Shown piece by piece: positions 7,627-62,698 of a DNA stretch of 64,000 bases. Each line of letters starts with the position of its first letter. The first letter of the stretch is position 1. This DNA comes from Clostridia bacterium (lineage in GTDB: Bacteria > Bacillota > Clostridia > Oscillospirales > Acutalibacteraceae). Under the pieces are notes generated by a model. That model was given only the letters and a program-made list of their open reading frames with translations, did no database searches and was not told the origin of the DNA. The DNA lies in contig JAFVBH010000001.1 in NCBI GenBank assembly GCA_017480115.1, forward strand, positions 7,809-71,808. The letters are read 5' to 3'. The translations under genes and the position numbers were made by a program.

Positions 7627-7690
7627 TGAATATTGATAGATCACTTGGCACCAAAAAATTTTTATGAAAATTTCGAGGAGGTGAAAGAAC

Positions 7691-13911: not shown

Positions 13912-13914
13912 TTC

Positions 13915-14133: not shown

Positions 14134-14329
14134 AACGAGGCACAGTTATGGGGCCGGCGTTTATTTTGATGAGCGCAAAAATCGATACGTCAGATATTCT
14201 GTCGGTTCACAGAGGAGCCGAGGAAAATACCTGCGCAATGTAGCGAATCGCAAGGTCCGTCGTTCCAACAACCCCTCAAACCATGGGGGCTATCGTAAAG
14301 TTTATGATTATTGGTGGGAGCTCTTATGA
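14078..14329 (+). CDS. small Arg/Lys-rich protein
   Basis: 83 aa. AAGGAG sits 4 nt upstream. MGHQRKMEEHRRLRKVY...NRKVRRSNNPSNHGGYRKVYDYWWELL. Confidence 0.5.
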   Translation: MGHQRKMEEHRRLRKVYIETRHSYGAGVYFDERKNRYVRYSVGSQRSRGKYLRNVANRKVRRSNNPSNHGGYRKVYDYWWELL

Positions 14330-15105: not shown

Positions 15106-15398
15106 TAAATCGTTCTGAAAGAAGGCGTCGTCGCTTAAAAAAGATTCAGCAAAGAGTGCGCCTTTTGACAAACACATCAAGAACGCGGACCGTACTTAAT
15201 TTACCGGAACAGCACGGTTATTTGGCAAACAACAATGAAGTAAATGCTCGCATGGGAGCCGGTACACCACGAAAAACAAACACGCGTAAATCCTGTGCCG
15301 CATACCGACATCATGGCGGCTATGGAAGCGCAACAAAATACAAACCCCATGATCAGCGACAAATTGATGCATTAAAACATAGCAATGAGGAAGCGTGA
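15102..15398 (+). CDS. small Arg/Lys-rich protein
   Basis: 98 aa. MINRSERRRRRLKKIQQRVRL...RKTNTRKSCAAYRHHGGYG. ATGA overlap with the MNT gene. Confidence 0.5.
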   Translation: MINRSERRRRRLKKIQQRVRLLTNTSRTRTVLNLPEQHGYLANNNEVNARMGAGTPRKTNTRKSCAAYRHHGGYGSATKYKPHDQRQIDALKHSNEEA

Positions 15399-15521
15399 GT
15401 TCTGCGCGGCAAACAGCAACATAACGACAATATTAACACATTTGGGAATGTCTCAAACATTACTTTTACGAATTGTTTTTCCCTGAAAAAGTCTGAATAT
15501 GTAGAAAAAGCTCACCGATTC

Positions 15522-15530
15522 TGTTATAAT
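15522..15530 (+). promoter_or_regulatory. extended -10 promoter element for the zinc-ribbon/NDT-like gene
   Basis: TGTTATAAT lies 36 nt upstream of ATG 15566. GGAGG at 15552-15556. Confidence 0.5.
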
Positions 15531-15565
15531 CATTAATTGAATAACGAATTCGGAGGATTTCTAAT

Positions 15566-16612
15566 ATGCAGCAAGCAACAAAATGCCCCGTTTGCGGTTC
15601 TGTAACGGAAACGAGTTCAAACTTTGGAATGAATACCGTTTTTTATGAATGCCCTACTTGCGGAAGATTTGAGCTCAGAGGATACAATGCATTAAGTAAA
15701 TGTGATAGGAATCACCTTTCATCGTATTTGTTTTATCATCGATTCAAAAGCGATGATTACACTGAGTACCGCTACCATACAAATCTTGAAAAGGAAACTT
15801 GCGATCAGTACCGGGCAGAGTTTGAGCAAGGAAATAACACGCACGGTCATCCAGTTCACATGGATGAAGATATAGTAAATAGTTGGTTTCCTCGGTCTTT
15901 TGCAGAAAAAGTCGATGACATACTTTTGCGTATCTTCCAACTAACACCTCACATGGGACAACAGATTCATCTATCTTATGAAGAAATGCTGAGTTTGTTC
16001 TTTATCGACAGAAAAGAACGTGATATGGTGCTTTCATCCAAAACCTATGGTCAATGGTGTGATCGCGAAGAAGATGATTGCATCAACGAAACCCAGTTTA
16101 TTTTAGAATTTCTAAATAATAGCGGATACATTGATTTTAATTGGGGAATAAAGGGTAGCGTCGGGCAAAATCTATTTGTTCGTTTATTACCGAGCGGCTA
16201 TTCAAGGGTCGATGAAATTCAAAAGAACACATCCTATGGCAGAAGTGCGCTTGTCGCAATGAAATTTGGTTCCGATACCATCCCACTTCGGGAAAGCATT
16301 AGAAAAGGAATTACAGACGCGGGTTACATAGCTATCTTCATTGATGAAGTACAGCACAATGACTTTATTACCCCGGAATTACTGAAACACATTCGCGACA
16401 GCAAATTTGTCGTTGTGGATTTGACGCATCAAAATAACGGTGCGTACTTTGAAGAGGGGTATGCGATGGGGCTTGGGAAACAAGTCATTCAATTATGTAA
16501 TGAGGATACGCACCTTCATTTCGATGTCGCCCAGAAGAACACTATCATGTGGAAAGAAGAAGCGGATATACCTGAAAGGTTGACCAATCGAATCAAAGCT
16601 ACGATTGATTGA
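15566..16612 (+). CDS. zinc-ribbon protein with a C-terminal nucleoside 2-deoxyribosyltransferase-like/TIR-like domain
   Basis: CPVCG-x20-CPTCG at the N-terminus. C-terminal ALVAMKFGSD...KFVVVDLTHQNNGAYFEEGYAMGLGKQVIQLC...HFDVAQKNTIMW. Confidence 0.7.
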   Translation: MQQATKCPVCGSVTETSSNFGMNTVFYECPTCGRFELRGYNALSKCDRNHLSSYLFYHRFKSDDYTEYRYHTNLEKETCDQYRAEFEQGNNTHGHPVHMDEDIVNSWFPRSFAEKVDDILLRIFQLTPHMGQQIHLSYEEMLSLFFIDRKERDMVLSSKTYGQWCDREEDDCINETQFILEFLNNSGYIDFNWGIKGSVGQNLFVRLLPSGYSRVDEIQKNTSYGRSALVAMKFGSDTIPLRESIRKGITDAGYIAIFIDEVQHNDFITPELLKHIRDSKFVVVDLTHQNNGAYFEEGYAMGLGKQVIQLCNEDTHLHFDVAQKNTIMWKEEADIPERLTNRIKATID

Positions 16613-16654
16613 CTTCATATTGATCTATTTCGCTGAAAAGGAGGTGATGGACAA

Positions 16655-17266
16655 GTGTCCGACAAGCATTTCGCGTATTCCGGCGATCCCGAAGCGCGCC
16701 GACCAATGCATCTTGTGGATGAGGGGTTTCAAGAGTTTAAGCGAACAAGCGCGATAGCCGGATTCTGCCATTGCCTTATTCATACCGGTTACCTAACCAT
16801 TAACGCAATGGAACGTCATGATTGCATTAACAAAGATTGTGTTTTCTTTGAGAAGTTTAATGATTTTCCTTACTGGCTCAATGAACAGCGCAAGGAACAG
16901 GAACGCCTGAAAAACCGTAAAATTAAAGAGAAAAAGAAACAACGCCAAGAAAGACATCAATCTGCCCTGCAGGAGAAAACCGACAAAATATTCAAAGCTG
17001 CGGAAACAATCGCGCGTGAGTACGAGTATCCAATTGTAATTACGAGAGTTGCCCCGTTAAAAGACGAGAGAAATAATTATAAATACATTATTAACTATGT
17101 TTCAAACTATCCCGGTAACGATTGGTATGAGTATCACACGCTTGCATTTATATTGGGTTATCATTATGGTGGTTTTTACATACTGAGGCACACGAAGAAA
17201 CCGAACGGCGAGTATGCGACCATTTCAGATTGGGAAAACAGAGAGGGTAACACAGACGTTTCTTGA
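16655..17266 (+). CDS. hypothetical protein with a Lys/Glu-rich central helix
   Basis: GTG start 10 nt after GGAGG. 203 aa. EQRKEQERLKNRKIKEKKKQRQERHQ segment. Confidence 0.55.
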   Translation: MSDKHFAYSGDPEARRPMHLVDEGFQEFKRTSAIAGFCHCLIHTGYLTINAMERHDCINKDCVFFEKFNDFPYWLNEQRKEQERLKNRKIKEKKKQRQERHQSALQEKTDKIFKAAETIAREYEYPIVITRVAPLKDERNNYKYIINYVSNYPGNDWYEYHTLAFILGYHYGGFYILRHTKKPNGEYATISDWENREGNTDVS

Positions 17267-17324
17267 AACAATGTTCCCCGTTTGAACTTCAAAAGTGATA
17301 GTAATTTTTTTAGGAGGTAAAAGA

Positions 17325-18023
17325 ATGTCTTATATATTCTTTTGGAAAACCGATGAAGAGTATGGATTCTTAAGCAATTGGTATCATAGCCCTTTTATTG
17401 TTGATGGAATTGAATACTATCATACAGAGCAATATTTTATGGCTAAGAAAGCCTCTTTCTTCGGTGATTTGGTGCACCAGAAAGAAATACTTGCTTCCTC
17501 ATCGCCAAAGAAATGTAAAGACTTAGGATGCCTTGTATCACCCTTTGATCCTGTAGTTTGGGATGAGTTTCGATACGGAATCATGATGAACGCAAATCTT
17601 GCTAAATTTACTCAGAATCATGAACTCCGTAAAAAACTACTCGATACAGGGGATTCGCTTCTCGCAGAAGCAAGCCCTGTGGATGGCATTTGGGGGATTA
17701 AACTTTCTGCCGATGAAGCGGCAAAATTGCCACCGGAAGAATGGCCGGGCTTAAATCTAATGGGCAAAATCTTAATGACCTTAAGATCAGATTTTAGATC
17801 AGATATATTTAAATTAACAGGTAAAACAGATCATCAATTAAAGATAGAGTGGCTGAAACAAGTTGAACGTAATTTTGGTATAATTAATTTGCGTGAACAT
17901 GAAAGGCTGCTTAACTCAATCGAAAAAAGTGATTCTGGGGGAAAAGAGATAATTTGCAAGAGAAACTTTAGCCGTTCATACCGTGTGAATAGAAAAAAAG
18001 GCAAGGAGGATAAGGTTGTATAA
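17325..18023 (+). CDS. NADAR (YbiA/DUF1768) family protein with a C-terminal extension
   Basis: FFWKTDEEYGFLSNWYHSPFIVDGIEYYHTEQYFMAKKA...ASPVDGIWGIKL. AGGAGG sits 7 nt before ATG 17325. Confidence 0.85.
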   Translation: MSYIFFWKTDEEYGFLSNWYHSPFIVDGIEYYHTEQYFMAKKASFFGDLVHQKEILASSSPKKCKDLGCLVSPFDPVVWDEFRYGIMMNANLAKFTQNHELRKKLLDTGDSLLAEASPVDGIWGIKLSADEAAKLPPEEWPGLNLMGKILMTLRSDFRSDIFKLTGKTDHQLKIEWLKQVERNFGIINLREHERLLNSIEKSDSGGKEIICKRNFSRSYRVNRKKGKEDKVV

Positions 18024-18246
18024 CATAATAATCGATTTTGCACACAATGATGTTGTATTATCTGCAGCTATAGGAAAAAATCTTGGAGATATAATTGACT
18101 TTGTTTTTCTAATCAACAAAGAGAAGGGCGTACTGGCGATCACAAGCGATGTAGAATTAGACAACTTAAATAAAATAAAAAGAACGGGACATCGCCGCAA
18201 CTCACGCATAAATAGGTATTATGACGAAACTGTTGACGGATATTGA
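18016..18246 (+). CDS. small hypothetical protein
   Basis: 76 aa. Overlaps the NADAR stop by 8 nt. Confidence 0.4.
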   Translation: MYNIIIDFAHNDVVLSAAIGKNLGDIIDFVFLINKEKGVLAITSDVELDNLNKIKRTGHRRNSRINRYYDETVDGY

Positions 18247-18264
18247 ATACGAACTTCCTACAGA

Positions 18265-18456
18265 ATGCTGTACTTATTTAGAGACTTTATTCCCGACTTT
18301 TCTGAAAAAAACACTTATTCAACACAGGGAGAAAAAGCGACCAATGCAAACGTAATTCTGTTTGATTTAACAAAAGCGCAACGACACCAAAAAGTTGAAA
18401 ACAGAACTTCTAAACTCGGTGAGGATATAACTCGACCATACAATCCCGTTTTATGA
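18265..18456 (+). CDS. small hypothetical protein
   Basis: 63-aa ORF. Weak support. Confidence 0.3.
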   Translation: MLYLFRDFIPDFSEKNTYSTQGEKATNANVILFDLTKAQRHQKVENRTSKLGEDITRPYNPVL

Positions 18457-18569
18457 GTCAGAATAAATGTAAAAACACCACCGTAAAATATCTTGGTCGC
18501 GTTACTTTTTCAAATATAAAGAAAATGCATCAGCTCCCATAATTGGAATCCGATGCATTCGATGAGTTG

Positions 18570-19623: not shown

Positions 19624-19746
19624 GAGTTTTTTTGATAAATTTTACGATTTTTTGCCCCTATATATTAACATAAAAGTCATAAGCTGTCCATTGGTCCTGA
19701 CAAAAGATAAAACTCATTCACAGAAAAACAGATGCATCCAGCAAAT

Positions 19747-19861
19747 GGGGTGCATCTGATTTAATATGCGGGGTGCATCTGCCGAAATGGGGTGCATCCT
19801 TTCTTTTTAGTGAGGTGCAAACATAAAAAATGGGGTGCATTTTCCGAAAAGCGGGGTGCAT
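19747..19861 (+). repeat. array of six direct repeats GGGGTGCAT (one degenerate)
   Basis: Copies start at 19747, 19770, 19789, 19812 (GAGGTGCAA), 19832 and 19853. Start-to-start spacing is 23/19/23/20/21 nt. Confidence 0.85.
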
Positions 19862-19954
19862 TCTATCAAAATTTTAGTTCTTTGCCATAAAAGAACGGTA
19901 GTTTTGATAGAATTACCGTTCTTTTCTTTTTGCCTGAAAATCCCTTGATTTGGA

Positions 19955-20040
19955 GGCTTTTCCCAATACTATTCCATTGGAAAAGCCGCTGTGAATGTCT
20001 TTTCCGCAACGGCTTTTCTTGCTTTTCCACCGCTTTTCCC
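19955..20040. repeat. cluster of GCTTTTCC motifs (five direct, one inverted)
   Basis: Motifs at 19955-19964, 19979-19987 (inverted), 19997-20005, 20011-20019, 20021-20028 and 20032-40. The last three are 10-11 nt apart. Confidence 0.7.
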
Positions 20041-20054
20041 GGAAACCAAAAAAT

Positions 20055-20102
20055 GTAATCGTTGAATAACTGGGGTAATCGTTAAATTATAGCATAATCG
20101 TT
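20055..20102 (+). repeat. three direct repeats (G/A)TAATCGTT
   Basis: Copies at 20055-20063, 20075-20083 and 20094-20102, spaced 20 and 19 nt. Confidence 0.75.
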
Positions 20103-20201
20103 AAAATATGAAATGATGGGTTTTTACATCTATAATTGGTGTTTAGTCGATTAGGTTGAAAAAACTCATTTTTTGTGATACTATGATTATAAGTTAAACA
20201 T

Positions 20202-20393
20202 TTGGATGTAATGACGATGGAGAATGTACATTTTATCATTTATCGAAAAGCAGCATTCGCAGGGGCGCTCTTGCCTTACAACATTTATATCAATGGTCAG
20301 TTTGTCAGTACAATTAAAAATGGACAAACGCTCCATGTAGATGTTCCCAGAGCCGATGTATATTACAAAAAACTAAATTTGATGACTGTATAA
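20202..20393 (+). CDS. short ORF of doubtful status
   Basis: 63 codons, AT-rich, preceded by TTGAAA-17-TACTAT. No convincing RBS. May be a fragment. Confidence 0.3.
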   Translation: MDVMTMENVHFIIYRKAAFAGALLPYNIYINGQFVSTIKNGQTLHVDVPRADVYYKKLNLMTV

Positions 20394-20544
20394 AATCATT
20401 GCGAGGTGCATGAGTACATCATTCTTCATATCGTTATTTTTCTGCTTATTTTGCTACTTACCCCATGATAACTGCAACTCACCGAAAAACGATTGAAACT
20501 TGGAACAAAACATGATAAAACAAAACCAGTACGGAGGCGATTGT

Positions 20545-32205: not shown

Positions 32206-32465
32206 CTTATATCCATATTACCGGCGGCAGCGGTCAGTTTATTTGTCCGCTGCCGCGCAGTCTGTCCATAAATGCGTACGCCTGTTTGCAATCAACATTT
32301 GACAGGCAAATGACTACCACAAAAGAAATTTTTAAACGAATTTCAAATCAGCCGTGTTTTTGCCCGCTCGCAGTACCATCGTACAGTTTCGGAGCGAAAA
32401 CACGGCTGCTTTCTGTCTTTTTCGTCAGTCAGCGTTCTGCAACGAAAAAAATTTCAATTTAATTA

Positions 32466-32494
32466 TTGACAACTGTCTTTTCAGGTGCTATAAT
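32466..32494 (+). promoter_or_regulatory. consensus sigma-A-type promoter upstream of the surface-protein locus
   Basis: TTGACA (32466-32471), 17-nt spacer, TATAAT (32489-32494). Confidence 0.65.
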
Positions 32495-32568
32495 GTAACA
32501 AATTAATTCATACTTACCTCATAGGTTTTATGGGTTTATAAAATTACTCATATTGCTGAGCCGATAAG

Positions 32569-32607
32569 CGGCAGGCGCGATTATATTCGCCTGTCGTTTA
32601 TTTTTTT
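32569..32607 (+). terminator. intrinsic terminator inside the leader
   Basis: CGGCAGGCG-N10-CGCCTGTCG (one G-U pair) followed by TTTATTTTTTT. Confidence 0.6.
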
Positions 32608-32669
32608 AATGACCGTACGCTGTAAACCGCGTCGGCAGCGGCAAATCAATCAAAAGGAGGCAACGAACC

Positions 32670-32735
32670 ATGTCAAGAAACAAAACCGAAGCAGCGAAGG
32701 TATTCCGAATGCGATGTTGCCCGACATGTATATAA
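32670..32735 (+). CDS. candidate 21-aa Cys-rich micro-ORF
   Basis: AAAGGAGG (32653-32660) sits 9 nt before the ATG. Encodes MSRNKTEAAKVFRMRCCPTCI. Below the ORF-track length cut-off. Confidence 0.35.
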   Translation: MSRNKTEAAKVFRMRCCPTCI

Positions 32736-32770
32736 CACACCTTTAAAAAAAACTGAAAGGAATATGCAGA

Positions 32771-35700
32771 ATGAGCAAACCCATTAAACGCGTGCTTGCG
32801 ATTTTTTTGGCGATCACGCTGGCATTCGGCGCATCGGTACCGATTCTTGCCGCCGATCAAACGTCCACGGTCACAGAGCTGACGCTCACACAAACCGCGA
32901 ATAATTCTGACGGAAACAAAGTCACGGCAAGCGTGCGCGTGACCGACCGCAACGGCAATCCCGTTGTTGAGGACGCCACGGGAAACAACGTCATCTTAAA
33001 TTTTACCGAAACCGGCAAAAAACTGACCAGCAGTAAAGGCCGTCTGAACGGGGACGGTGAGTATGCCGCCACAAAGACCATCAGCGGCGGTAAAACCTAC
33101 GACGTTTACGCGGAGTATACGGGACCGGGCGATTACGCGCCGTCCGAAAGCGAACATATTACGATCACAGCGATCAAGCCCGTGCTGAGCCTGTCTTCTA
33201 CGCCGTCCCTGACGGACAAAGAGACCGGCACGATCACCATCGGCGGGGATTACGGCGCGCTGTCGCAGTTCGTCTATTACAAAAATCCCAGCGGCAATGA
33301 GATTACCGTTTCCGCCAACAAAATCACCGGACTCGCCGCAGGAAATTACTATGTCAGAAGCCTGCCGTATCAGGACGGCAACACCTTCTATCTCGCCTCG
33401 GCGAACAGACCGATCACCGTGGAAGAGATCGACGGCGTCGCGCACACCCTGACCCTTGCGGGCGCGAACGTAACGTGGCTGGACGCGGCGTCAGATCCGC
33501 TGGACGAAAACGCCCTTATCATCAGCGAACAGACCGCGCTGCGGCTGATTCCCGAAGCGGACATCGGCTTCCGTATCACCGGCGTGACTGCGGAACCGGC
33601 GGAGGCGGCGACCGTAACCTTTGATACGCAGACCGGCGTCGTCACCGTTGCCGACGCGACCGGCGATCTGACCCTGACCGCCGTCACCGAGGATATTCGC
33701 AAGGATACCGCCGTCACGCTGGCGGTCAGCCAAAGCGCGACCAACGGCAGCGTGCTGGTCGCAAATATCACCGTTGTTGACGCGGACGGCGCGCCGGTCA
33801 GCGAAACGCCTGATAATGACAATATCAAATTATATGTAGGCGGCGCGCTCTCCCACACCGGCAAGCTGGATGCAAACGGCAACCGCGCCTACACCAAATC
33901 ACTCAGCGCAGACCGCAGCTACGACGTCTATGCCGTCTATGTCGGCCAGGGCGAATACAGAAGCGCCGAGAGCAACCATATTACGATCACCACAAAATCC
34001 ACCGCGATCACCGCTGCGGCGACGCCCGCCACGACGAAAAACGACGTCGGCACGATCACCGTTTTCGGCGATTACGCTTACTATGAATACTACAAATCGC
34101 CCAACGGCAACGAGATCCGCGTTACCGACAACGTCATTACGGGGCTTTCCGCAGGCGAGTATTATATCAAGGTTCCCGCCTATCAGGACGGCAACACCTT
34201 CTATTTTGAATCCAGCAAAGCGCGCGTCACGGTAGACGAGATCGAGGAGATCACCCGCCGCGTCTCCCTTGCGGGAGAGAATGCGGTCTGGTCGCCCGAT
34301 ACCGCCGTCGTTGAACTGGCTGACGGCGAGGACGCAACGTTCACCGTCGCCGCAGCGGAGCATTACAGCATTACCGGCGTTACCGCTGAACCCGCGCAGA
34401 ACGCGACAGTGGCTTTTGACGACGCCACCGGCACGGTATCCGTCACCGGCATCAAGGGCGACGTGACCCTGACCGCGCATACGCAGCTGATCCAAAAAGA
34501 GGTAAGCGTTGCGCTTCTTTCCGTAACGCAGAGCGGCGACGACGGCAGAACGCTGATCGCCGAGATCAAGGTCGTTGATGAGGACGGCAACGCGGTCAAC
34601 GAGACCACGGACGCAAACAACGTGATCCTGCATGTCGGCGCGTACACCGTCTCCGACAAACTGAACGACGCGGGCATCGCCACCTTAAAGCGGCAGCTCG
34701 GGACAACCGCAGGCAGCTACGACGTTTATGCCGAATATGTCGGCGCCGGCGTATACAAAAGCGCGTACAGCGCCCACACTACGATCAATACCGTAACGAC
34801 GGCGCTGCCGAAGAACGCGGTCACGACCGCAGCTTCGTTTATCAAGAGAGCGACCGGCAGCATCACCGTTCCCGGCGATTACACCTATTTTGAATACTAC
34901 AGAGATCCCAACGGCACGCCTGTCCGCGTGGCAGGCGCGACCGCGGAAAATCTCGAGGGCGCAAGCTACTATGTGTATATTCCCGCCTACAGCGAGGAGA
35001 ATACCTTCTACTTCCAGTCCAACAAGGTTCTTGTGACCGTGGACGCCGTTCCCGAGTTCTATTACACCGTGACCGGTACCGGCGCGCATGCAATTTGGTC
35101 GGCGGAACAGACCGTCATCGCCGAGGACGGCGGCGCAACCGTCACCGTGACCGCAGAGGCGGGCTATATCATCTCCGGCGTGACGGCGGAGCCTGCGAAT
35201 AACGCAAAGGTCTCCTTCAACCCCGCGACCGGCGTTGTCACCATCGACGATATTCGGGGCGATATTACCCTGACGACGGCGTTCCGGTATCAGAGCGACG
35301 AAAATGACGCGTATACCGTCACCCTTACCGACGACGCCCGCGTCGTATGGAACGCGGCAGGCGGCAGCATCAAGGTCAAATACGGCGTTGACGGCTCGGT
35401 CTATCTCCAGTCTGCCGATGCGGCCAGATACTTTATCGATACCGTCACCGCGTCCCCCGCGGGCAGAGCGAGTGTGACCTATTCCTCCACCGGCGAGGTG
35501 CATATCACCGATATTATTTCCGACATTACGCTGACCGCAGAAATCACGGAAAAGCAGATCGCGCAGACGCTGGTTGTCGCCTACGATTTTGAGCGCGGCA
35601 GCAATTACAGCGAGTCTAATCCCGCGGTTAACGCCATCTTCAGCGTCACCGCGCTGGATGAAAACGGCGCGACCGTTCCCGGCACGAAGATCTACTTCAA

Positions 35701-36640
35701 AGCGGACGAAAGCGAAGCGTCTTTCAACCAAATTCAGGAGACTGACACAAACGGCGTCGCGACCTTTAAATACGCGTTTGCCATTGCACACGGCGACGTC
35801 AGCGCAGATTATGCTGCCGCATTCGCCCTTGACCGCGCGTTTACGGCGCCCGTTTTACAGCCGCTGCATATCGTGCAGCAGAAGAGCGCCGACCTGATTC
35901 TCTTTACGGATCAGATCATTGCCGCAACGCCGGGCGAATCCAACGGCAAGGTCATCGGCGTCCCCGCGAACTATGAAATCTACAACGGCGAGATCCATCA
36001 GGGCGCGATCGTTTCCGGCAGCACCTGGAGCTTCCCGATCAACGGCGAGTTCACCGATCTTTCCGTCGGACAGCACGCGATCCGCGCGGCGGAATATTTC
36101 GACGCCGCGACCGATACCTTCTATCTGAAATCCGATTACGAGGTATTCACCGTACCCCGCGGCTTCTGGACGGTGACGGCGGCTGCCGCAGACGCTGACG
36201 GCGTCAATTTCACACAAGGCGTTACCTACACTGCCGAGCCGGGCGGCACCGTCTATGTGTTCTTTACGGTTGCGGACGGCCATACGTATCAGTCCTTTAC
36301 GGTCAGCAACCCGAATTACGTCAGCGGCGAGATCATCTACAACGCGGAGGCGGGCTACATCGTCATTGACGGCGTAACCGGCAACATCACGTTGACGGTC
36401 GTCACCAAACCTGTGGAGCAGCAGACGGAACCGACCAATCCCACAGAACCGACGGAGCCGACCAAACCCACGGAGCCGACCAAGCCCACGGAACCGTCAA
36501 CGACCAATCCGTCCGGCGCGCCGGAAACCCCGAAAAACGCCTGCAAATACTGCGGCAAGGTGCATACCGGCTTCTGGGGCAAGATCACGCAATTCTTCCA
36601 TAATATCTTCTACTTCTTCAAGCATTTGTTCAGAAGATAA
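32771..36640 (+). CDS. 1289-aa secreted repetitive cell-surface protein
   Basis: Signal peptide MSKPIKRVLAIFLAITLAFGASVPILAAD. Four tripartite repeat units of roughly 270 aa (Ig-like unit VxVxDxxGxPV...YDVYAxYxGxGxYxSAxS, then GxITVxGDYxYxEYY...NTFYF, then ITGVTAEPAxxATVxFDxxTGxVTV). TEPTKP linker. Cys/aromatic tail. No LPXTG. Confidence 0.9.
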   Translation: MSKPIKRVLAIFLAITLAFGASVPILAADQTSTVTELTLTQTANNSDGNKVTASVRVTDRNGNPVVEDATGNNVILNFTETGKKLTSSKGRLNGDGEYAATKTISGGKTYDVYAEYTGPGDYAPSESEHITITAIKPVLSLSSTPSLTDKETGTITIGGDYGALSQFVYYKNPSGNEITVSANKITGLAAGNYYVRSLPYQDGNTFYLASANRPITVEEIDGVAHTLTLAGANVTWLDAASDPLDENALIISEQTALRLIPEADIGFRITGVTAEPAEAATVTFDTQTGVVTVADATGDLTLTAVTEDIRKDTAVTLAVSQSATNGSVLVANITVVDADGAPVSETPDNDNIKLYVGGALSHTGKLDANGNRAYTKSLSADRSYDVYAVYVGQGEYRSAESNHITITTKSTAITAAATPATTKNDVGTITVFGDYAYYEYYKSPNGNEIRVTDNVITGLSAGEYYIKVPAYQDGNTFYFESSKARVTVDEIEEITRRVSLAGENAVWSPDTAVVELADGEDATFTVAAAEHYSITGVTAEPAQNATVAFDDATGTVSVTGIKGDVTLTAHTQLIQKEVSVALLSVTQSGDDGRTLIAEIKVVDEDGNAVNETTDANNVILHVGAYTVSDKLNDAGIATLKRQLGTTAGSYDVYAEYVGAGVYKSAYSAHTTINTVTTALPKNAVTTAASFIKRATGSITVPGDYTYFEYYRDPNGTPVRVAGATAENLEGASYYVYIPAYSEENTFYFQSNKVLVTVDAVPEFYYTVTGTGAHAIWSAEQTVIAEDGGATVTVTAEAGYIISGVTAEPANNAKVSFNPATGVVTIDDIRGDITLTTAFRYQSDENDAYTVTLTDDARVVWNAAGGSIKVKYGVDGSVYLQSADAARYFIDTVTASPAGRASVTYSSTGEVHITDIISDITLTAEITEKQIAQTLVVAYDFERGSNYSESNPAVNAIFSVTALDENGATVPGTKIYFKADESEASFNQIQETDTNGVATFKYAFAIAHGDVSADYAAAFALDRAFTAPVLQPLHIVQQKSADLILFTDQIIAATPGESNGKVIGVPANYEIYNGEIHQGAIVSGSTWSFPINGEFTDLSVGQHAIRAAEYFDAATDTFYLKSDYEVFTVPRGFWTVTAAAADADGVNFTQGVTYTAEPGGTVYVFFTVADGHTYQSFTVSNPNYVSGEIIYNAEAGYIVIDGVTGNITLTVVTKPVEQQTEPTNPTEPTEPTKPTEPTKPTEPSTTNPSGAPETPKNACKYCGKVHTGFWGKITQFFHNIFYFFKHLFRR
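36425..36496 (+). repeat. 9/18-bp periodic tract encoding (TEPT[NK]P)n
   Basis: ACGGAGCCGACCAAACCC / ACGGAGCCGACCAAGCCC in tandem (36452-36487), flanked by degenerate units. Confidence 0.8.
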
Positions 36641-41418: not shown

Positions 41419-42477
41419 TTATAATTGCATGCCGGCGTCCAAAAACGGACGGAACGCCGAGGGCAGCGCGTACGTATTTTGCAGCTCTGCGGCGCTCGCC
41501 CATACGAATGCGTCCGGCATCTCCCGACATTCAAAATAATAGCAGGTCATATGCCACTCCACATGGGTAAAAATATGGGTATACGCGGTCTGCATCAGCA
41601 GCTGCGCGGGCGACGTCCCCCAATCGGCGGCTATTTCCGCCGCGCGGCGAAGCGCGTCATCCTCCGAAGCGGGCGCGGTATCCACGTTGGGAAATTCCCA
41701 CAGGTTCGCCAAAAGCCCCGTAGATTTCCGCTTTCTGACCGCGTAACGATCGCCGCATTTCAGGAATAATACGGTTTTCTCCACTCTTTTGCGCTGTTTT
41801 TTCGCGTCCCGCACCGGAAAGCCCGCCCACGAGGTATGCGCGTTGGCAAGGCAGTGCGCCGCCAGCGGACATTCCGTACATTTCGGGTTGCCGTTAGGCA
41901 CGCAGACGCAGGCGCCCAGCTCCATCAGGCTCTGCGTCAGGATACCGCACAGTCCGGGACGGTACAGAGGCTGCAATTCCGCCGCGACCTGCTTTTTGGT
42001 CGTCTCTTTGTCGATATTTCTGCCGTCCTCGTTCAGCCGCGCGCAGACGCGCAAGACGTTGCCGTCCACAGCGGGCGTTGGCAGATCAAAGCAGATCGAC
42101 GCGATCGCGCCCGCCGTATACGCGCCGACGCCGGGCAGCGCGCGTATCTCATCATAGACGGCGGGAAATACTCCATGATACCGTTCCACAAGCAGTTGGG
42201 CGGCTTTTTTTAAGTTGCGGGCGCGGTTGTAATAGCCCAGCCCCTCCCACAGCTTCATCAGCTGATCGTCCTCCACGGCGGCAAGCGCCTGTACCGTCGG
42301 CAGCTCCCGCAAAAAGCGCAGATAATACCCGATCACCGCCTCCACGCGGGTCTGCTGTAACATGATCTCGGAAATCCAGACATGATACGGCTCCCGATCC
42401 TGCCGCCATGGCAGAGCCCGCGCGTGTGCGGCGTACCAATCCGGCAAAATCGCGGGGATATAAGCGAAACGCTCCAT
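41419..42477 (-). CDS. mutY: A/G-specific adenine DNA glycosylase
   Basis: LPWRQDREPYHVWISEIMLQQTRVEAV...GLGYYNRARNL...PGVGAYTAGAI...CVPNGNPKCTECPLAAHC. GAAAGGTGG precedes ATG 42477. Confidence 0.9.
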   Translation of the reverse strand: MERFAYIPAILPDWYAAHARALPWRQDREPYHVWISEIMLQQTRVEAVIGYYLRFLRELPTVQALAAVEDDQLMKLWEGLGYYNRARNLKKAAQLLVERYHGVFPAVYDEIRALPGVGAYTAGAIASICFDLPTPAVDGNVLRVCARLNEDGRNIDKETTKKQVAAELQPLYRPGLCGILTQSLMELGACVCVPNGNPKCTECPLAAHCLANAHTSWAGFPVRDAKKQRKRVEKTVLFLKCGDRYAVRKRKSTGLLANLWEFPNVDTAPASEDDALRRAAEIAADWGTSPAQLLMQTAYTHIFTHVEWHMTCYYFECREMPDAFVWASAAELQNTYALPSAFRPFLDAGMQL

Positions 42478-42538
42478 GGGCAACCACCTTTCTTCCGGAT
42501 CATTATAACACAGATCCCCCTGCCGCCGCAACAGCTGA

Positions 42539-43047
42539 AAATTCTGATTTATCGGGGCGTGGACGCCCCGATAAATCAGAATTTAATGAATAATGAATAG
42601 TGAATGATGAATGATTGTGGAACCGCTTCGCAGTTGGATTTTAGAACTGATTGCCGGAAACGGGTAGCACGGCGCACTGCGCCGTTTAAATTCCACAACG
42701 ACGGTAGAAATTTTGACAAAGGCACATATACCCCTCGTTGCGGAATTTTTATAATGAGGCGCGACAGCGCCCACCGTATGGAAAGCCGGGTAGATCAGCA
42801 TGCTTTTTCGGCTTTGGAATATGGTTAAGCCCTGCGGGCATTTATTAGAAAATCATACGACAAAGGATAAATCGTGCCTTTCCCCAGTATTTTCCGTTTG
42901 CCGCATGATTAAACGGCGCAGTGCGCCGTGCTACCCGTTTCCGCTAATTTGTTTAAAAATCCAAATCGCGCAGCGATTTCCGCAATTATTCATTCTTCAT
43001 TTTTAATTTTTCATTTCTGATTTAGCTGCTGCGCAGCTAAATCAGAA
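42539..43047. repeat. 509-bp nested palindromic element (hairpin caps, about 70-nt imperfect inverted arms, 35-bp perfect inverted repeats, 219-bp core)
   Basis: Hairpin A at 42539-42584 (21-bp stem). Perfect IR CGGAAACGGGTAGCACGGCGCACTGCGCCGTTTAA at 42655-42689, with its reverse complement at 42909-42943. Hairpin B at 43015-43047 (15-bp stem). Confidence 0.9.
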
Positions 43048-43048
43048 T

Positions 43049-44074
43049 TTATATCATTCCCTTAAATTCCTCCAGATTCTCCGGCGTCATCTGCCGCGCG
43101 CCGGTCTCCAGCTCATGGATCATTTTTGTCAGCAGGGCGTTGACGGGGGCTTTGATGCCGTTCTCCTCCGCTTTTCGCGCCAGCCAGCCGTTGAAAATAT
43201 CCACTTCCGTCTTTTCGCCGTGCAGCAGGGATTGCAGCGTTGAGGGCTTAACGACGGCGTATTTGCCCTTTCCCACCAGTTTGACGACCCGCTTGCAGAC
43301 GCCGTTATACCACGACGCGTTGGAAAGCCGCAGCAGGCGGTAATCCAGCAGCAGCCCATATTTGGGCACTTTGATTTTCATGACGTCCGCCACGTCCATG
43401 CCCTCGCGGGCGATGGCAAGAAACAGATCCTGCGCCCGTTTATCGTCCAAAATTTCACCGAGCGTTTTTCCGGTGATCGCCGCCGTCGCGTTGATGCAGC
43501 AATTGATGATAAGCTTGGAAAACTGCCGACGGACGATCTCGTCCGATATTTTTGTTTTGACAACGCAGCTGTACATGGTGCAAAGATCGTCGAGAATGCC
43601 CGGGTGAGCGCCGTTCGGCATACCGATGTACATCTCGCCGCCGCTGGTCATCTCGATCTCGGTATCGCTGTGCTTGGTGGCGCCGAAGCCGATCATACAG
43701 CCCACAGCCCGCTCCTCGCCGACGATCTGCGCCAGCTCGTCGGTGCAGATACCGTTCTGCATGCCGACCACAAGGGAGCATTGATGGATCAGTGGCAGAA
43801 TACTTTCCGCGACCGCCTGCAAATGCATATATTTTACGGCGATAATTACAATATCATAGGTTTTGTCCAGCATTTCCACGCTGCTGTAGACGTTCGGGAA
43901 TGCGCGCACATCGCCCCGCGCGCCCGTAAGACGCAATCCCTGCTTGGCGATTTTTTCCGCAGCGCCGGGCGCAATCTCAAGCACGTCGGCGGGATAACCG
44001 CCATGGTTCATCAATACCGCCAGCGTACCGCCGATGGCGCCCGCGCCGACGATCAGAGTTTTTGTCTCTTTCAT
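43049..44074 (-). CDS. ketopantoate-reductase (PanE/ApbA) family 2-oxoacid reductase
   Basis: KTLIVGAGAIGGTLAVLM Rossmann start. Length and C-terminal helical domain are typical of the family. Confidence 0.8.
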   Translation of the reverse strand: MKETKTLIVGAGAIGGTLAVLMNHGGYPADVLEIAPGAAEKIAKQGLRLTGARGDVRAFPNVYSSVEMLDKTYDIVIIAVKYMHLQAVAESILPLIHQCSLVVGMQNGICTDELAQIVGEERAVGCMIGFGATKHSDTEIEMTSGGEMYIGMPNGAHPGILDDLCTMYSCVVKTKISDEIVRRQFSKLIINCCINATAAITGKTLGEILDDKRAQDLFLAIAREGMDVADVMKIKVPKYGLLLDYRLLRLSNASWYNGVCKRVVKLVGKGKYAVVKPSTLQSLLHGEKTEVDIFNGWLARKAEENGIKAPVNALLTKMIHELETGARQMTPENLEEFKGMI

Positions 44075-50082: not shown

Positions 50083-50184
50083 TTAGCGCCCGCCGAACCA
50101 GCCCTTCGGGCAGCGGCGATGGCATAACCGAAAGCTTGTAGCTTCGCCGCCGAAGGCGTGCGGCGAAGCCGCTTTCTTAAAGGG
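50083..50184 (+). repeat. interspersed roughly 100-bp repeat, family 1 (second copy)
   Basis: About 90% identical to the reverse complement of 26338-26440. Confidence 0.85.
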
Positions 50185-50315
50185 GGAAGTGAAGTTTGGA
50201 AGATGGGATTTCGGAACGCCTGCGCATTGGATTTACAAGCATAGCTTCTCATGCAGAATTTTCAGAATCCAAGCCGTCGGCGGCTTCCGAAATCATTCAT
50301 CATTCATTATTCATC
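50185..50315. repeat. compact palindromic element related to the arms of the 42539-43047 element
   Basis: GGAACGCCTGCGCATTGGATTT and AATCCAAGCCGTCGGCGGCTTCCGAAATCATTCATCATTCATTATTCAT resemble GGAACCGCTTCGCAGTTGGATTT (42620-42642) and its inverted partner near 42958-43012. Confidence 0.65.
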
Positions 50316-50346
50316 AAGCGCTTCCTCCCATACAACCTTGCGCCCT

Positions 50347-61724: not shown

Positions 61725-62698
61725 TCGTGCGCACCCCGTTTCGCATGTCTTTTTTCGGCGGCGGCACGGATTTTACGGAATATTTTTCCGCTTACGGCGG
61801 CAGCGTCCTGTCCACCACCATTGACAAGTACTGCTATCTTACCCTGCGGCACATGCCGCCGTTTTTTGAATATCAAAGTCAGCTCACCTATTCGCAAATT
61901 GAGCGTTTTAACGCGCCGGAGGAGCTGCAGCATCCGCTGGTACGGGAAGCATTGCAGTATCTGCCGACAGAACGCATACAGATCAGTTATGACGCCGATT
62001 TACCCGCTTGCTCCGGAATCGGCTCCAGCTCCGCCTTCGCGGTGGGCTTGCTGCAGGGACTGCACGCCTTGCGGGGGGAATACCCTGACCGTATGACGCT
62101 TGCAAAGGAAGCCATTTATCTGGAACGGGAGCGCTGCGGCGAAGCGGGCGGCGTACAGGATCAGCTGGCGGCGGCGTTCGGCGGCTTTAACCGATTGAAT
62201 TTCACTGCCGACGGCTATGAAGTTCTGCCGATTCAGATTTCAAAAGCGCGGGCAGATGCTTTTCAAAATCAGCTTCTTTTGCTTTTTACCGGTTTCACCC
62301 ATGTTTCCGGCATTGTTGCCCGGGAGCAAAAACAGAATATTCCCGCGACGCTTGCCCAACTGAACGAAATGAAGGCGCTTGCGGACATTGCGCAGGAAAT
62401 TCTGATAAATGGAGATATGGACGAATTTGGAAGGCTGCTGGATCATACATGGCGGCTGAAGCGCACCCTGTCTTCCCGCATCACCAATGATGCAATCGAT
62501 GCGATCTACCTAAAGGCGAAAGCCTGCGGCGCTTTGGGCGGGAAACTGCTGGGCGCCGGCGGCGGCGGATTTATGCTGCTGTACGTCCCGCAGGAAAAAC
62601 GCGAACATCTGCTTTCGCGCATGCAGGCATATAAATTTGTGCCCTTTGCTTTTGAAAATACCGGCACCCAGATTCTGTACCGCAATGATACGATGTAA
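61718..62698 (+). CDS. GHMP-family sugar kinase (heptose-7-phosphate kinase HddA-like)
   Basis: MLIVRTPFRMSFFGGGTDF...GGSVLSTTIDKY...PACSGIGSSSAF...GGKLLGAGGGGF. Confidence 0.8.
   Translation: MLIVRTPFRMSFFGGGTDFTEYFSAYGGSVLSTTIDKYCYLTLRHMPPFFEYQSQLTYSQIERFNAPEELQHPLVREALQYLPTERIQISYDADLPACSGIGSSSAFAVGLLQGLHALRGEYPDRMTLAKEAIYLERERCGEAGGVQDQLAAAFGGFNRLNFTADGYEVLPIQISKARADAFQNQLLLLFTGFTHVSGIVAREQKQNIPATLAQLNEMKALADIAQEILINGDMDEFGRLLDHTWRLKRTLSSRITNDAIDAIYLKAKACGALGGKLLGAGGGGFMLLYVPQEKREHLLSRMQAYKFVPFAFENTGTQILYRNDTM

What the first reader, a model, noticed from the sequence alone, without database searches (positions are those of the whole stretch)
42539..43047. 509-bp nested palindromic element between the panE-like operon and mutY
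Seen, from left to right: hairpin A (21-bp perfect stem, 42539-42584); an arm of about 70 nt rich in (A/T)GAAT repeats (aatgaataatgaatagtgaatgatgaatga...); a 35-bp perfect inverted repeat (42655-42689 with 42909-42943) that itself contains the dyad ACGGCGCA-C-TGCGCCGT; a 219-bp unique core; the inverted arm; and hairpin B (15-bp stem, 43015-43047). The two arms are imperfect inverted copies over about 70 nt. Hairpins A and B share the outer stems TTCTGATTTA/TAAATCAGAA but have unrelated GC-rich inner stems (TCGGGGCG vs GCTGC), so structure is kept while sequence is swapped. The only ORFs across the element are mirror-image artefacts; KRRSAPCYPFP appears on both strands. The element occupies all the space in which a mutY promoter would have to sit. 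Inference, with alternatives: a MITE-like non-autonomous element with long terminal inverted repeats; an invertible segment (IR-flanked core) that could switch transcription into mutY; or a structured RNA locus. I found no convincing promoter hexamers in the core, which weakens the inverton idea.
Basis: seen in the sequence. Interest (0 to 1): 0.65.

Follow-up and report, generated by a model that had tools for sequence, protein, structure and literature searches.

The report
Dispersed hairpin-ended repeat element before mutY
The 509-bp palindrome between panE and mutY is not a gene switch but one copy of an abundant, apparently undescribed family of small non-coding repeats in uncultured ruminant-gut Clostridia, which sit at conserved DNA hairpins at gene ends and carry short 7-base tandem repeats.

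Summary
It is not a one-off. In four ruminant gut metagenomes the flanking genes have depth about 10x, while parts of the element reach 300-1,200x. All eight public contigs carrying identical MutY or PanE break inside it.

The terminal hairpins share 13-bp arms, AAATTCTGATTTA/TAAATCAGAATTT, around a variable GC-rich palindromic centre. They occur more than 118 times in about 10 ruminant Clostridia MAGs. About two thirds are followed on one side by 3-5 tandem heptamers, whose sequence is specific to each subfamily, and then by a short foldback body.

Comparing the same site across species shows three things:
- the hairpins persist at gene 3' ends and often supply the stop codon, as they do for panE here;
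- the bodies beside them can be absent, single, tandem or of different subfamilies;
- no target-site duplication is seen.

Three contigs that cross the 35-bp inverted repeat all show the window's orientation. The window encodes no invertase. A TGTTATAAT promoter-like box for mutY lies outside the element, so the inverton reading is not supported. Rfam gives no match.

Best reading: a REP/BIME- or MITE-like non-autonomous element that inserts next to hairpin "landing pads". The enzyme that moves it is unidentified.

The parts
42539..42584 (.). Terminal hairpin A ("T-hairpin"): arms AAATTCTGATTTA / TAAATCAGAATTT around the inner palindrome TCGGGGCG-TGGA-CGCCCCGA. This is the end of the element on the mutY side.
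   Evidence: The same arms and the same TCGGGGCG inner stem occur in other MAGs (L196, L202, L223).
42585..42612 (+). Left heptamer array: AATGAAT AATGAAT AGTGAAT GATGAAT.
   Evidence: TRF period 7, 4.1 copies. The same hairpin + AATGAAT layout is seen in RUG11941 (L216, L246, L257, L268).
42613..42642 (-). Left copy of the ~65-nt "M1" unit (with the heptamers): ATTGTGGAA, then the small hairpin AACCGC-TTC-GCAGTT, then GGATTTT.
   Evidence: Depth 540-900x against 10x in the flanks. In all other copies laid, position 42632 reads G, which makes the stem perfect. Homologous units occur in 9 loci of other gut Clostridia MAGs.
42655..42689 (+). Left arm of the perfect 35-bp inverted repeat ("M2"), containing the dyad ACGGCGCA-C-TGCGCCGT.
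   Evidence: Depth 765-1,187x. No match in GTDB species genomes.
42690..42908 (.). 219-bp core. It holds an internal 17-nt hairpin pair (42688-42704 / 42732-42748), TTGACA (42713-18) and TATAAT (42750-55) 31 nt apart, and a high-copy segment at 42820-42859 containing GCCCTGCGGGC. The centre (42700-42819) is low-copy.
   Evidence: depth 0-90x in the centre, 530-700x at 42820-42859. No sigma-70-like site in the core.
42909..42943 (-). Right arm of the 35-bp inverted repeat (M2').
   Evidence: In other copies this module is joined directly to a T-hairpin + M1 (joint 42938->42567).
42955..42984 (+). Right M1 unit: AAAAATCCAA, then the hairpin AAATCGC-GCA-GCGATTT, then CCGCAATT. Read on the minus strand it looks like a terminator: hairpin followed by GGATTTTTAA.
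   Evidence: (terminator-like site 42979->42963).
42985..43014 (+). Right heptamer array, inverted: ATTCATT CTTCATT TTTAATT TTTCATT.
   Evidence: TRF period 7, 4.6 copies.
43015..43050 (.). Terminal hairpin B: 15-bp stem TTCTGATTTAGCTGC / GCAGCTAAATCAGAA plus the TTT of the outer arm. The outer arm overlaps the panE stop codon (TAA = 43051-43049 on the minus strand).
   Evidence: The same stop-codon overlap is frequent across the family.
42484..42510 (-). mutY promoter-like extended -10 (TGTTATAAT, 42510-42502) and ribosome-binding site AAGGTGG (42490-42484). Both lie outside the element.
   Evidence: Read directly from the sequence. Not tested experimentally.
41419..42477 (-). mutY (HhH-GPD + NUDIX_4).
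43049..44074 (-). PanE/ApbA-family ketopantoate reductase, the last gene of a 2-oxoacid:ferredoxin oxidoreductase cluster. Its stop codon is shared with hairpin B.
50183..50316 (.). Second, shorter family member in the window. Two inverted M1 units (the left one degenerate) flank a ~30-nt centre; there are no T-hairpins. It lies between convergent AMP-binding enzyme genes.

Best explanation
The element is one copy, the longest seen here, of a dispersed, multi-copy, non-coding repeat family in a clade of uncultured ruminant-gut Clostridia.

Family layout: a terminal hairpin (conserved 13-bp AT-rich arms, hypervariable GC-rich palindromic centre), then 3-5 tandem heptamers specific to the subfamily (here AATGAAT), then small internal hairpin modules, and the mirror image of all this on the other side.

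Shown:
- it is multi-copy;
- it is a mosaic of modules with different copy numbers;
- the hairpins occupy orthologous gene-3' positions in related species and often provide the stop codon;
- the bodies beside them vary (none, one, tandem, or different subfamilies) and there is no target-site duplication.

Inferred:
- the hairpins act as landing pads, or att-like sites, next to which bodies are inserted and lost by a trans-acting enzyme that recognises hairpin DNA. My leading guess is a single-strand HUH/Y1 transposase of the IS200/IS605-RAYT type; a site-specific recombinase is second. The enzyme was not found;
- recombination or gene conversion through the conserved arms swaps the inner stems.

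At this locus the hairpin at the panE stop codon is probably the resident pad, and the body extends toward mutY. The likely local effect is passive: a very stable 3' structure and a possible terminator for the panE operon, insulating mutY, which has its own promoter-like box. It is not a phase switch.
For: Copy number
- Flanks are at ~10x. Depths inside the element are 42560-42640 at 300-900x, 42660-42699 at 765-1,187x, 42820-42859 at 530-700x and 42960-43059 at 470-1,225x, all at >=95% identity. Many loose ends run into different flanks, and a different module order exists.
- All 8 contigs with identical MutY or PanE end inside the element.
- A second copy sits at 50183-50316.

Family
- 105 of 118 have a perfect inner palindrome, with about 6 recurrent stems.
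- 75 of 112 have a heptamer array on exactly one side.
- Arrays have 3-5 copies (mode 4) and 23 distinct consensus heptamers.
- Complete elements have 126-351 nt between their hairpins.
- AATGAAT-type copies are present in RUG11941.

Same site in different species
- A solo hairpin in one species against a hairpin plus one or two bodies in another (L199/L260, L286/L288).
- Bodies of different subfamilies at the same hairpin (L214/L258, L251/L291, L191/L289).
- A plsC-like gene ends ...KF* inside the hairpin arm in three species at 75-82% amino-acid identity. They have three different inner stems and 0, 2 and 1 bodies. The next relative, at 55%, has an ordinary terminator instead.

Stop codons
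- Of about 52 genes reading into a hairpin, 35 stop within its first 9 nt.

Negatives for rival readings
- No Rfam match and no invertase or transposase in the window.
Against: - No mobilising enzyme was found. There is no recurrent transposase-like ORF in 103 loci. Rough Y1 probes gave no hit in 2.0 Mb. There are no viral hits.
- No empty site is available for the window's own copy, because panE-mutY synteny is absent from 80 MutY loci.
- The inner repeat (M2) and the core have no match in any assembled genome. Their multi-copy status rests on metagenome k-mer depth, which cannot say which organism carries the copies.
- The hairpin search required exact arms, so statistics on the bases flanking them are biased.
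- Hairpins persisting at orthologous sites fit a host function (terminator or mRNA stabiliser) as well as they fit mobility.
- The reason for subfamily-specific heptamers is unexplained.
Confidence: 0.72

Rival explanations
1. Invertible switch (inverton): a recombinase flips the 219-bp core between the 35-bp inverted repeats, changing transcription into mutY.
For: The geometry is right: a perfect 35-bp inverted repeat around a 219-bp segment. A mutator gene lies downstream. TTGACA and TATAAT hexamers are present in the core.
Against: - Three contigs from two samples cross the repeat into the core, all in the window's orientation, with 0-2 mismatches. No strand-changing joints were seen.
- The two hexamers are 31 nt apart and face away from mutY, and the scan finds no promoter-like site in the core.
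- mutY has an extended -10 box outside the element.
- The only recombinase in 64 kb is a large serine integrase inside a prophage-like region about 38 kb away.
- The repeat arms are themselves high-copy modules found in other arrangements.
Confidence: 0.04
2. Primarily an RNA element. The hairpins and arrays are selected as 3'-UTR structures, terminators or small RNAs, with the heptamers as protein-binding repeats, and the copies are kept for host function rather than by mobility.
For: - Hairpins sit at gene ends and replace an ordinary terminator at the plsC-like locus.
- One M1 unit reads as terminator-like on the transcribed strand.
- Stems change sequence but stay paired.
- Many arrays follow NNNNTAG or NNNNGAG.
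- A bovine metatranscriptome contig reads from a flank through an element.
- GTAG REPs also supply stop codons and are thought to act as RNA (PMC3733652).
Against: - No Rfam family matches.
- The U-tracts after the hairpins are poor.
- Elements occur in both orientations relative to transcription.
- Body content differs at orthologous sites, and tandem units occur, which is mobile-DNA behaviour.
- Loops are mostly GNA triloops, which to my knowledge typify stable DNA hairpins.
- The RNA evidence is a few low-depth contigs.
Confidence: 0.15
3. Classical TIR-MITE derived from a DDE insertion sequence, moved by cut-and-paste with a target-site duplication.
For: Small, non-coding, multi-copy, with long terminal inverted symmetry. 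A T precedes and an A follows many hairpins, which could hint at a TA target.
Against: - No duplication flanks the window copy (GA...AT) or the 10 complete elements.
- Orthologous comparisons show bodies joined exactly at the hairpin end with nothing duplicated.
- Head-to-tail tandem units share one hairpin arm.
- No IS with these ends turned up in 103 loci.
- The two terminal hairpins of one element differ in their centres.
Confidence: 0.07
4. A unique local palindrome produced by replication error or local duplication-inversion, with no wider meaning.
For: The inner repeat and the core are absent from all assembled genomes searched.
Against: Depth is 30-120 times that of the flanks in four metagenomes. 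The hairpin, heptamer and M1 modules are found in many other genomes.
Confidence: 0.02

Closest known systems
REP / BIME elements and REPINs mobilised by RAYT (IS200/IS605-like Y1 transposases) in Proteobacteria
   Same: - Short GC-rich palindromic units in high copy, extragenic and mostly just downstream of genes.
- Unit termini can supply the stop codon (PMC3733652; here).
- Units occur singly, as inverted doublets and in mosaic clusters with other motifs.
- They persist at orthologous sites in related species.
- No transposase lies inside the repeats.
   Different: - No GTAG or CGTC tag.
- The arms are AT-rich and conserved while the centre is hypervariable.
- Each hairpin is coupled to tandem heptamer arrays and to exchangeable 100-430-nt bodies.
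- The host is Clostridia; the cited REP survey does not mention Firmicutes.
- No RAYT gene was found, though the search was shallow.
Bacterial MITEs (for example Correia elements of Neisseria, RUP/BOX of pneumococcus, ERIC)
   Same: 100-500-bp non-coding, multi-copy elements with inverted symmetry, lying in intergenic DNA. They can carry terminator- or promoter-like signals and they break short-read assemblies.
   Different: No target-site duplication and no matching IS. Insertion is tied to a pre-existing hairpin. Units occur in tandem. The element ends are complete hairpins with unrelated centres.
IS200/IS605-family elements and their non-autonomous derivatives (PATEs)
   Same: There is no duplication. 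The element is joined exactly 3' of a fixed sequence (...TAAATCAGAATTT), and its own far end reproduces that sequence, which allows head-to-tail arrays. The signals are hairpins, with DNA-type GNA loops.
   Different: In IS200/IS605 the hairpins are subterminal and inside the element, and the two ends are not inverted copies. Here the bodies are inverted-symmetric. No TnpA was found.
Integron gene cassettes and attC sites
   Same: Recombination sites that are palindromes with conserved outer parts and variable centres. Different cassettes, or tandem cassettes, sit at one site, each cassette ending in its own (half) site.
   Different: The sites are dispersed at hundreds of gene ends rather than arrayed next to intI/attI. 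The cassettes are non-coding. The stems are perfect, without extrahelical bases. No integrase is nearby.
Tandem heptamer repeats of cyanobacteria and Beggiatoaceae (TAACTGA direct repeats)
   Same: Intergenic tandem arrays of a 7-nt unit, 2-6 copies, at many loci, with a suspected regulatory or protein-binding role and possible horizontal spread (PMC4679880).
   Different: Those arrays use a single heptamer, lie mostly just upstream of start codons, and are not paired as inverted arrays next to a hairpin. Here there are at least 23 heptamer types, each tied to an element subfamily.
Invertons (for example the C. difficile flgB and cwpV switches, Bacteroides invertible promoters)
   Same: A 100-400-bp segment bracketed by a 20-35-bp inverted repeat, upstream of a gene.
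   Different: Only one orientation was seen, there is no internal promoter or invertase, and the repeat arms are dispersed repeat modules.

Membership tests
Inverton (invertible promoter/terminator switch) | A segment bracketed by inverted repeats | tested here: met
   Perfect 35-bp inverted repeat around 219 bp.
Inverton (invertible promoter/terminator switch) | Both orientations present in sequence data | tested here: inconclusive
   Three repeat-crossing contigs (L081, L084, L294) all show the window's orientation, and no strand-change joints were seen. Only assembled contigs were available, not raw reads, so a minority form could be missed.
Inverton (invertible promoter/terminator switch) | A promoter (or terminator) inside the segment that acts on the neighbouring gene | tested here: not met
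   No promoter-like site in the core. TTGACA and TATAAT are 31 nt apart and point away from mutY. The mutY -10 box lies outside the element.
Inverton (invertible promoter/terminator switch) | A cognate invertase (small serine or tyrosine recombinase) | tested here: not met
   Pfam scan of 57 window ORFs found only a large serine integrase at 2093-3997, in a prophage-like region. A recombinase encoded outside the window cannot be excluded.
Classical TIR-MITE | Small, non-coding, multi-copy | tested here: met
Classical TIR-MITE | Terminal inverted repeats | tested here: met
   However, each terminus is itself a complete hairpin, and the two centres differ.
Classical TIR-MITE | Target-site duplication | tested here: not met
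   None at the window copy, at the 10 complete elements, or at orthologous occupied versus unoccupied sites.
Classical TIR-MITE | A parent IS with the same ends | tested here: inconclusive
   None in 103 loci (about 0.65 Mb). Whole MAGs could not be scanned.
REP / BIME / REPIN-RAYT | Short palindromic units, high copy, extragenic, mostly at gene 3' ends | tested here: met
REP / BIME / REPIN-RAYT | Conserved GTAG (or CGTC) tag at one end of the unit | tested here: not met
   The arms are AAATTCTGATTTA / TAAATCAGAATTT with no such tag. Definition taken from PMC3733652.
REP / BIME / REPIN-RAYT | Inverted doublets and mosaic clusters | tested here: met
   M1 doublets (L111, L118, window 50183-50316) and the mosaic element at 42539-43050.
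REP / BIME / REPIN-RAYT | A RAYT (Y1 HUH) gene flanked by the units | tested here: inconclusive
   tblastn of all 2.0 Mb held, using two Y1 transposase sequences recalled from memory, gave nothing below E = 0.2. The window has none by Pfam. The genomes themselves were not searched.
IS200/IS605-derived non-autonomous element | Insertion 3' of a fixed short target, no duplication, and the far end of the element resembles the target | tested here: met
   Bodies begin right after ...TAAATCAGAATTT and end with ...CCCGATAAATCAGAATTT. Tandem units are seen.
IS200/IS605-derived non-autonomous element | Asymmetric ends with subterminal hairpins; TnpA in trans | tested here: not met
   The bodies are inverted-symmetric. 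TnpA was not found.
Integron cassette / attC | Palindromic site with conserved outer and variable inner part | tested here: met
Integron cassette / attC | Cassette array adjacent to intI and attI; extrahelical bases in attC | tested here: not met
   The sites are dispersed at many gene ends. 105 of 118 stems are perfect. No integrase in the window.
Any Rfam RNA family | Score at or above the family's gathering threshold | tested here: not met
   The best hit scored 22.9 bits against a threshold of 94; all ten were chance-level.

The most novel reading that the evidence does not exclude
The hairpins and bodies form a previously unrecognised site-specific mobile system in Clostridia. Conserved-arm DNA hairpins fixed at gene 3' ends serve as reusable landing pads. 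Short non-coding foldback cassettes are inserted, stacked in tandem, exchanged and removed at these pads by an unknown enzyme that recognises hairpin DNA. The four tandem heptamers act like iterons, giving each cassette lineage its own address. Cycles of integration and excision through the conserved arms swap the hairpin centres, which would explain why they stay perfectly palindromic while changing sequence.
Probability: 0.3. Interest if true: 0.8.

Novelty: new variant of a known kind. Interest (0 to 1): 0.6.

Why it matters
- It removes a tempting but unsupported idea, that a phase switch controls the mutator gene mutY. It also explains a practical nuisance: every short-read assembly of this organism breaks at this spot.
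- It uncovers a large repeat family in ruminant-gut Clostridia, a group in which I know of no REP- or MITE-like families.
- The family has three features that are unusual in combination: hairpins with conserved arms and fast-changing but always palindromic centres; subfamily-specific heptamer arrays; and different bodies occupying the same orthologous hairpin.
- If the landing-pad reading holds, there is an unidentified enzyme that recognises hairpin DNA and inserts short DNA without duplication. That would interest both mobile-element biology and tool development.
- If the hairpins instead work as terminators or mRNA stabilisers, they are a lineage-specific layer of gene-end architecture. They even contribute stop codons and the last two residues of proteins.

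Tried and rejected
- Rfam scan of the region at E <= 10: only chance hits.
- Exact scan for the inner 24-mer in GTDB species genomes: 0 hits.
- Metagenome contigs and viral-contig scans with the M1 pattern: 57 and 4 hits, all chance by inspection. A viral scan for the hairpin gave 0 hits.
- Fetching other copies through spurious ORFs: the 68-aa mirror ORF has no homologue in the protein collection.
- Empty-site comparison for the window copy: none of 80 MutY loci has panE upstream.
- TA target-site duplication: not supported at the window copy or at the paired elements.
- Flip/flop of hairpin loops, as in rolling-hairpin replication: loops are mostly in one orientation relative to the body, so this is not supported.
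- Looking for a transposase:
  - ORF clustering across 103 loci found only housekeeping paralogues, including an ECF sigma factor;
  - genes lying between hairpins 0.8-3.5 kb apart are ordinary;
  - Y1 probes gave nothing.
- RNA runs for the window: none. One bovine metatranscriptome gave a few low-depth contigs, which is not decisive.
- Literature searches for the arm and heptamer strings: only an unrelated Plasmodium oligonucleotide.
- One fold used a wrongly symmetrised hairpin B. It was redone from window coordinates.
Full report
**Observation**

The region was read directly and scanned for repeats.
- Hairpin A (42539-42584): 22-nt arms, fully complementary.
- A period-7 AATGAAT array (42584-42612).
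- An inverted repeat of 56 nt at 89%, whose inner 35 nt are perfect (42655-42689 / 42909-42943), with the ACGGCGCA-C-TGCGCCGT dyad in each arm.
- A 219-bp core.
- The mirrored array (42985-43016).
- Hairpin B (43015-47): 15-bp stem.

None of this is chance:
- The 36-mer occurs only at its two arms, with 0 matches in 100 shuffles.
- The 13-nt arm AAATTCTGATTTA occurs three times against 0.19 expected.
- As DNA, hairpin A folds at -23.6 kcal/mol (z about -11.7) and hairpin B at -15.4 kcal/mol (z -7.9).
- The whole interval folds at -265 kcal/mol (z -14).

The ORFs across the element are mirror artefacts that share KRRSAPCYPFP. The flanking genes are mutY (41419-42477, minus) and a PanE/ApbA reductase (43049-44074, minus), which ends a 2-oxoacid:ferredoxin oxidoreductase cluster.

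**One claim is wrong, and one detail was missed**

Between hairpin A and the mutY ATG there are 61 bp. They contain TG-T-TATAAT (42510-42502, minus strand) and an AAGGTGG ribosome-binding site 6 nt before the ATG. So mutY has room for, and appears to have, its own promoter outside the element.

The panE stop codon also overlaps the outer arm of hairpin B (ATA TAA ATT CTG).

**It is a repeat**

Contigs from four ruminant gut metagenomes were laid on the region. Depth is about 10x on both flanks and far higher inside the element. At >=95% identity:

| Segment | Depth |
|---|---|
| 42560-42640 | 300-900x |
| 42660-42699 (inner repeat hairpin) | 765-1,187x |
| 42700-42819 (core centre) | 0-90x |
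| 42820-42859 | 530-700x |
| 42960-43059 | 470-1,225x |

Many contigs leave the element at 42569-42591 or 43051-52 into unrelated flanks. Some join the right inner repeat directly to a hairpin-A-type sequence. The element is therefore a mosaic of modules with different copy numbers.

All eight public contigs that encode identical MutY or PanE end inside it. A second, shorter copy lies at 50183-50316 between convergent genes.

**The M1 unit in other genomes**

The unit AATCCAA-[small GC hairpin]-TTCCGAAAT(T/C)ATTC-(ATTCATT)n was found in nine loci of other gut and rumen Clostridia MAGs. It occurs alone or as inverted doublets, in unrelated gene contexts: mutS-mutL, upstream of infC-rpmI-rplT, and between convergent genes.

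Its hairpin keeps the outer AAG/CTT pairs while the inner three or four GC pairs differ fully between copies. In the window's left copy a mismatch (42632 A) is G in all other copies laid, and G restores the pair.

**The terminal hairpins in other genomes**

It returned 103 loci and 118 hairpins from about ten ruminant MAGs: RGIG2774, RGIG2671, RUG11941, T1900044942, RGIG5665, RUG14340 and others. One further hit, in Fusobacterium, is a chance palindrome.

- The centre is a perfect GC-rich palindrome in 105 of 118. There are about six recurrent stems (TCGC, ACGGC, TCGAGC, TGCGC, GC, and TCGGGGCG as in hairpin A) and many loops.
- With the body placed to the right, the loops are mostly of GNA type.
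- Of 112 hairpins with both flanks available, 75 have a heptamer array on exactly one side, 36 have none and one has both.
- Arrays hold 3-5 copies (mode 4) and fall into 23 consensus heptamers, such as GCATTAG, CCCGAGA, TATTTAG, GATATCG and AATGAAT.
- Complete elements read hairpin - array - 60-190 nt - inverted array - hairpin. The interior is 126-194 nt, with one of 351 nt. The window's 430-nt interior is the longest seen.
- The two hairpins of one element have different centres.
- Some elements end in only the distal half hairpin (CCCGAyAAATCAGAATTT). Head-to-tail tandem units also occur.
- AATGAAT-type copies exist in RUG11941, for example L257:1120-1535.
- The window's inner repeat and core match nothing assembled.

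**The same site in different species**

These comparisons carry the most weight.
- L199 has a solo hairpin where L260 has two tandem bodies plus a full hairpin, between the same flanks.
- L286 has a solo hairpin where L288 has the hairpin followed by a ~190-nt body. The body starts exactly at the hairpin's 3' end, and the flank resumes after it.
- Three pairs (L214/L258, L251/L291, L191/L289) carry bodies of different subfamilies at the same hairpin.
- A plsC-like gene ends ...Y(F/H)KF* in three species at 75-82% protein identity, and the codons AAA TTC TGA are the hairpin arm itself. The three hairpins have centres GC-GGA-GC, ACGGC-GAA-GCCGT and TCGC-TGC-GCGA, and carry 0, 2 and 1 bodies. The next relative, at 55% identity, has a different C-terminus and an ordinary terminator.

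No duplication of target sequence is seen in any of these.

Across the set, of about 52 genes that read into a hairpin, 15 stop at T+AA, 20 stop at the arm's TGA, and 16 stop within 30 nt before it. GTAG REPs are likewise reported to supply stop codons (PMC3733652).

**Interpretation**

Shown:
- this is a dispersed family;
- its hairpins are long-lived at gene ends;
- the adjacent bodies turn over.

Inferred:
- the hairpins are landing pads or att-like sites;
- bodies are inserted next to them without duplication by a trans-acting enzyme that recognises hairpin DNA.

Three observations fit the IS200/IS605-RAYT style best: the junction sits exactly 3' of ...TAAATCAGAATTT, that sequence is reproduced at the far end of the body, and tandem units occur. 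A site-specific recombinase crossing over in the conserved arms would explain them too.

Either mechanism, or gene conversion through the 13-bp arms, could swap whole centres. That would account for symmetric changes that keep the palindromes perfect. I rate the HUH-type mechanism at roughly one in three, a site-specific recombinase at one in five, and otherwise unknown.

I have no explanation for why arrays keep period 7 and about four copies while their sequence differs between subfamilies. Iteron-like protein binding is a guess.

**What it does at this locus**

By analogy with the plsC-like site, hairpin B at the panE stop codon is the resident pad, and the body extends toward mutY, ending in hairpin A. 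On the transcribed (minus) strand the right M1 hairpin is followed by GGATTTTTAA, and the terminator scan flags it. The element may therefore end or stabilise the panE-operon transcript and insulate mutY. This is inference only.

**Rival readings**

Inverton:
- Contigs L081 (to 42751), L084 (to 42703) and L294 (to 42885) cross the 35-bp repeat in the window's orientation.
- No strand-change joints were seen.
- The core has no promoter with usable spacing.
- The window holds no invertase. Its only recombinase is a large serine integrase, next to a Cro/CI-like pair in a prophage-like region at the left end of the window.
- Only contigs, not raw reads, were available, so a rare flipped form is not excluded.

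RNA element:
- Rfam is empty.
- A bovine metatranscriptome gave a few low-depth contigs reading from a flank through an element. That fits co-transcription but is weak.

Classical MITE:
- There are no duplications and no parent IS.

**Enzyme search and literature**

No recurrent transposase-like ORF lies near the hairpins. Rough Y1 probes found nothing in the 2.0 Mb held. The hairpin is absent from viral contigs. Whole MAG proteomes could not be searched with these tools.

Searches for the arm and heptamer strings found no description. The closest described things are:
- REP/BIME and REPIN-RAYT systems (PMC3116915, PMC3733652);
- bacterial MITEs (PMC3184786);
- TAACTGA heptamer arrays (PMC4679880).

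**Verdict**

The MITE-like reading is partly right, the inverton reading is not supported, and there is no evidence for an RNA-gene reading. The element is a member of an apparently undescribed REP/BIME- or MITE-like family with unusual hairpin-pad and heptamer features. I file it as a new variant of a known kind, of moderate to high interest.

Noticed in passing
window 50183-50316: A second, shorter family member: two inverted M1 units (the left one degenerate, GAAG-rich) around a ~30-nt centre, without terminal hairpins. It lies just after a conventional terminator (about 50140-50180), between convergent AMP-binding enzyme genes.
   Followed up: partly
window 1-18000 (e.g. 2093-3997, 4769-5140, 5244-5603): A large serine recombinase (Resolvase + Recombinase domains) lies next to a divergent pair of Cro/CI-type HTH genes and many ORFs with no Pfam match. 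This looks like a prophage or integrative element at the left end of the window.
   Followed up: partly
window 36424-36496, inside the ORF 32771-36640: Tandem 27/18-nt repeats (GACGGAACCGACCAAACCCACAGAACC) inside a 1,289-aa protein that has faint Ig-like domain hits. Probably a repetitive surface-protein linker.
   Followed up: no
window intergenic gaps 5604-6445, 11062-11730, 18024-18569, 19624-20499, 32206-32770, 62097-62636: Six other intergenic stretches of 540-880 bp were not examined. None contains the hairpin arm or a period-7 array.
   Followed up: no
L257:1380-1460, L216:6200-6260, L212:2720-2760, L215:4880-4920, L273:1150-1190; window 42750-42775: Bodies of several subfamilies share an internal motif: TATAAT followed within a few bases by a short GC hairpin (e.g. 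TATAATGGGGTATGGGGTGAAACCCCATC), placed just inside one heptamer array and pointing outward. No -35 box lies at a normal distance. It could be an outward promoter or a recognition site.
   Followed up: no
L191-L293 heptamer arrays: Many arrays fit NNNNTAG or NNNNGAG at a 7-nt period (GCATTAG, TATTTAG, GGTTAGG, CCCGAG, GGATGAG). From memory, this recalls the spaced (U/G)AG triplets bound by HutP and TRAP. Some also look like telomere-type TTAGG repeats. Other subfamilies, including AATGAAT, do not fit.
   Followed up: no
L215:4657-5047: A 316-nt body in which GTGAAAT heptamers alternate with small GC hairpins of differing sequence (CCGCC, CTGC, TCGC, CGCGC stems). The same conserved-flank, variable-stem rule appears here at a smaller scale.
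   Followed up: no
L117:6700-6890: An unrelated palindromic repeat (GACCGATGCCCACATCGGTC ... GACCGATGTGGGCATCGGTC) lies beside an M1 unit in an Acutalibacteraceae MAG. This may be another repeat family.
   Followed up: no
L288:5141-5178 vs L286:7483-7510: A solo hairpin sits in the 5' leader between a TATAAT box and the start codon of an ABC-permease-like gene in one species and is absent in the other. Hairpins are therefore not restricted to gene 3' ends.
   Followed up: partly
L298/L299/L300 (1920-1970) vs L301: In the three hairpin-bearing species the last two residues (KF) and the stop codon of a plsC-like acyltransferase are encoded by the hairpin arm. No conventional terminator follows, whereas the hairpin-free relative has one.
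   Followed up: yes
window 42000-42270 (inside mutY): Depth peaks of 25-55x against about 10x at 42054-42107 and 42216-42269 in the metagenome contigs. These are probably conserved mutY segments shared with other species, not repeats.
   Followed up: no
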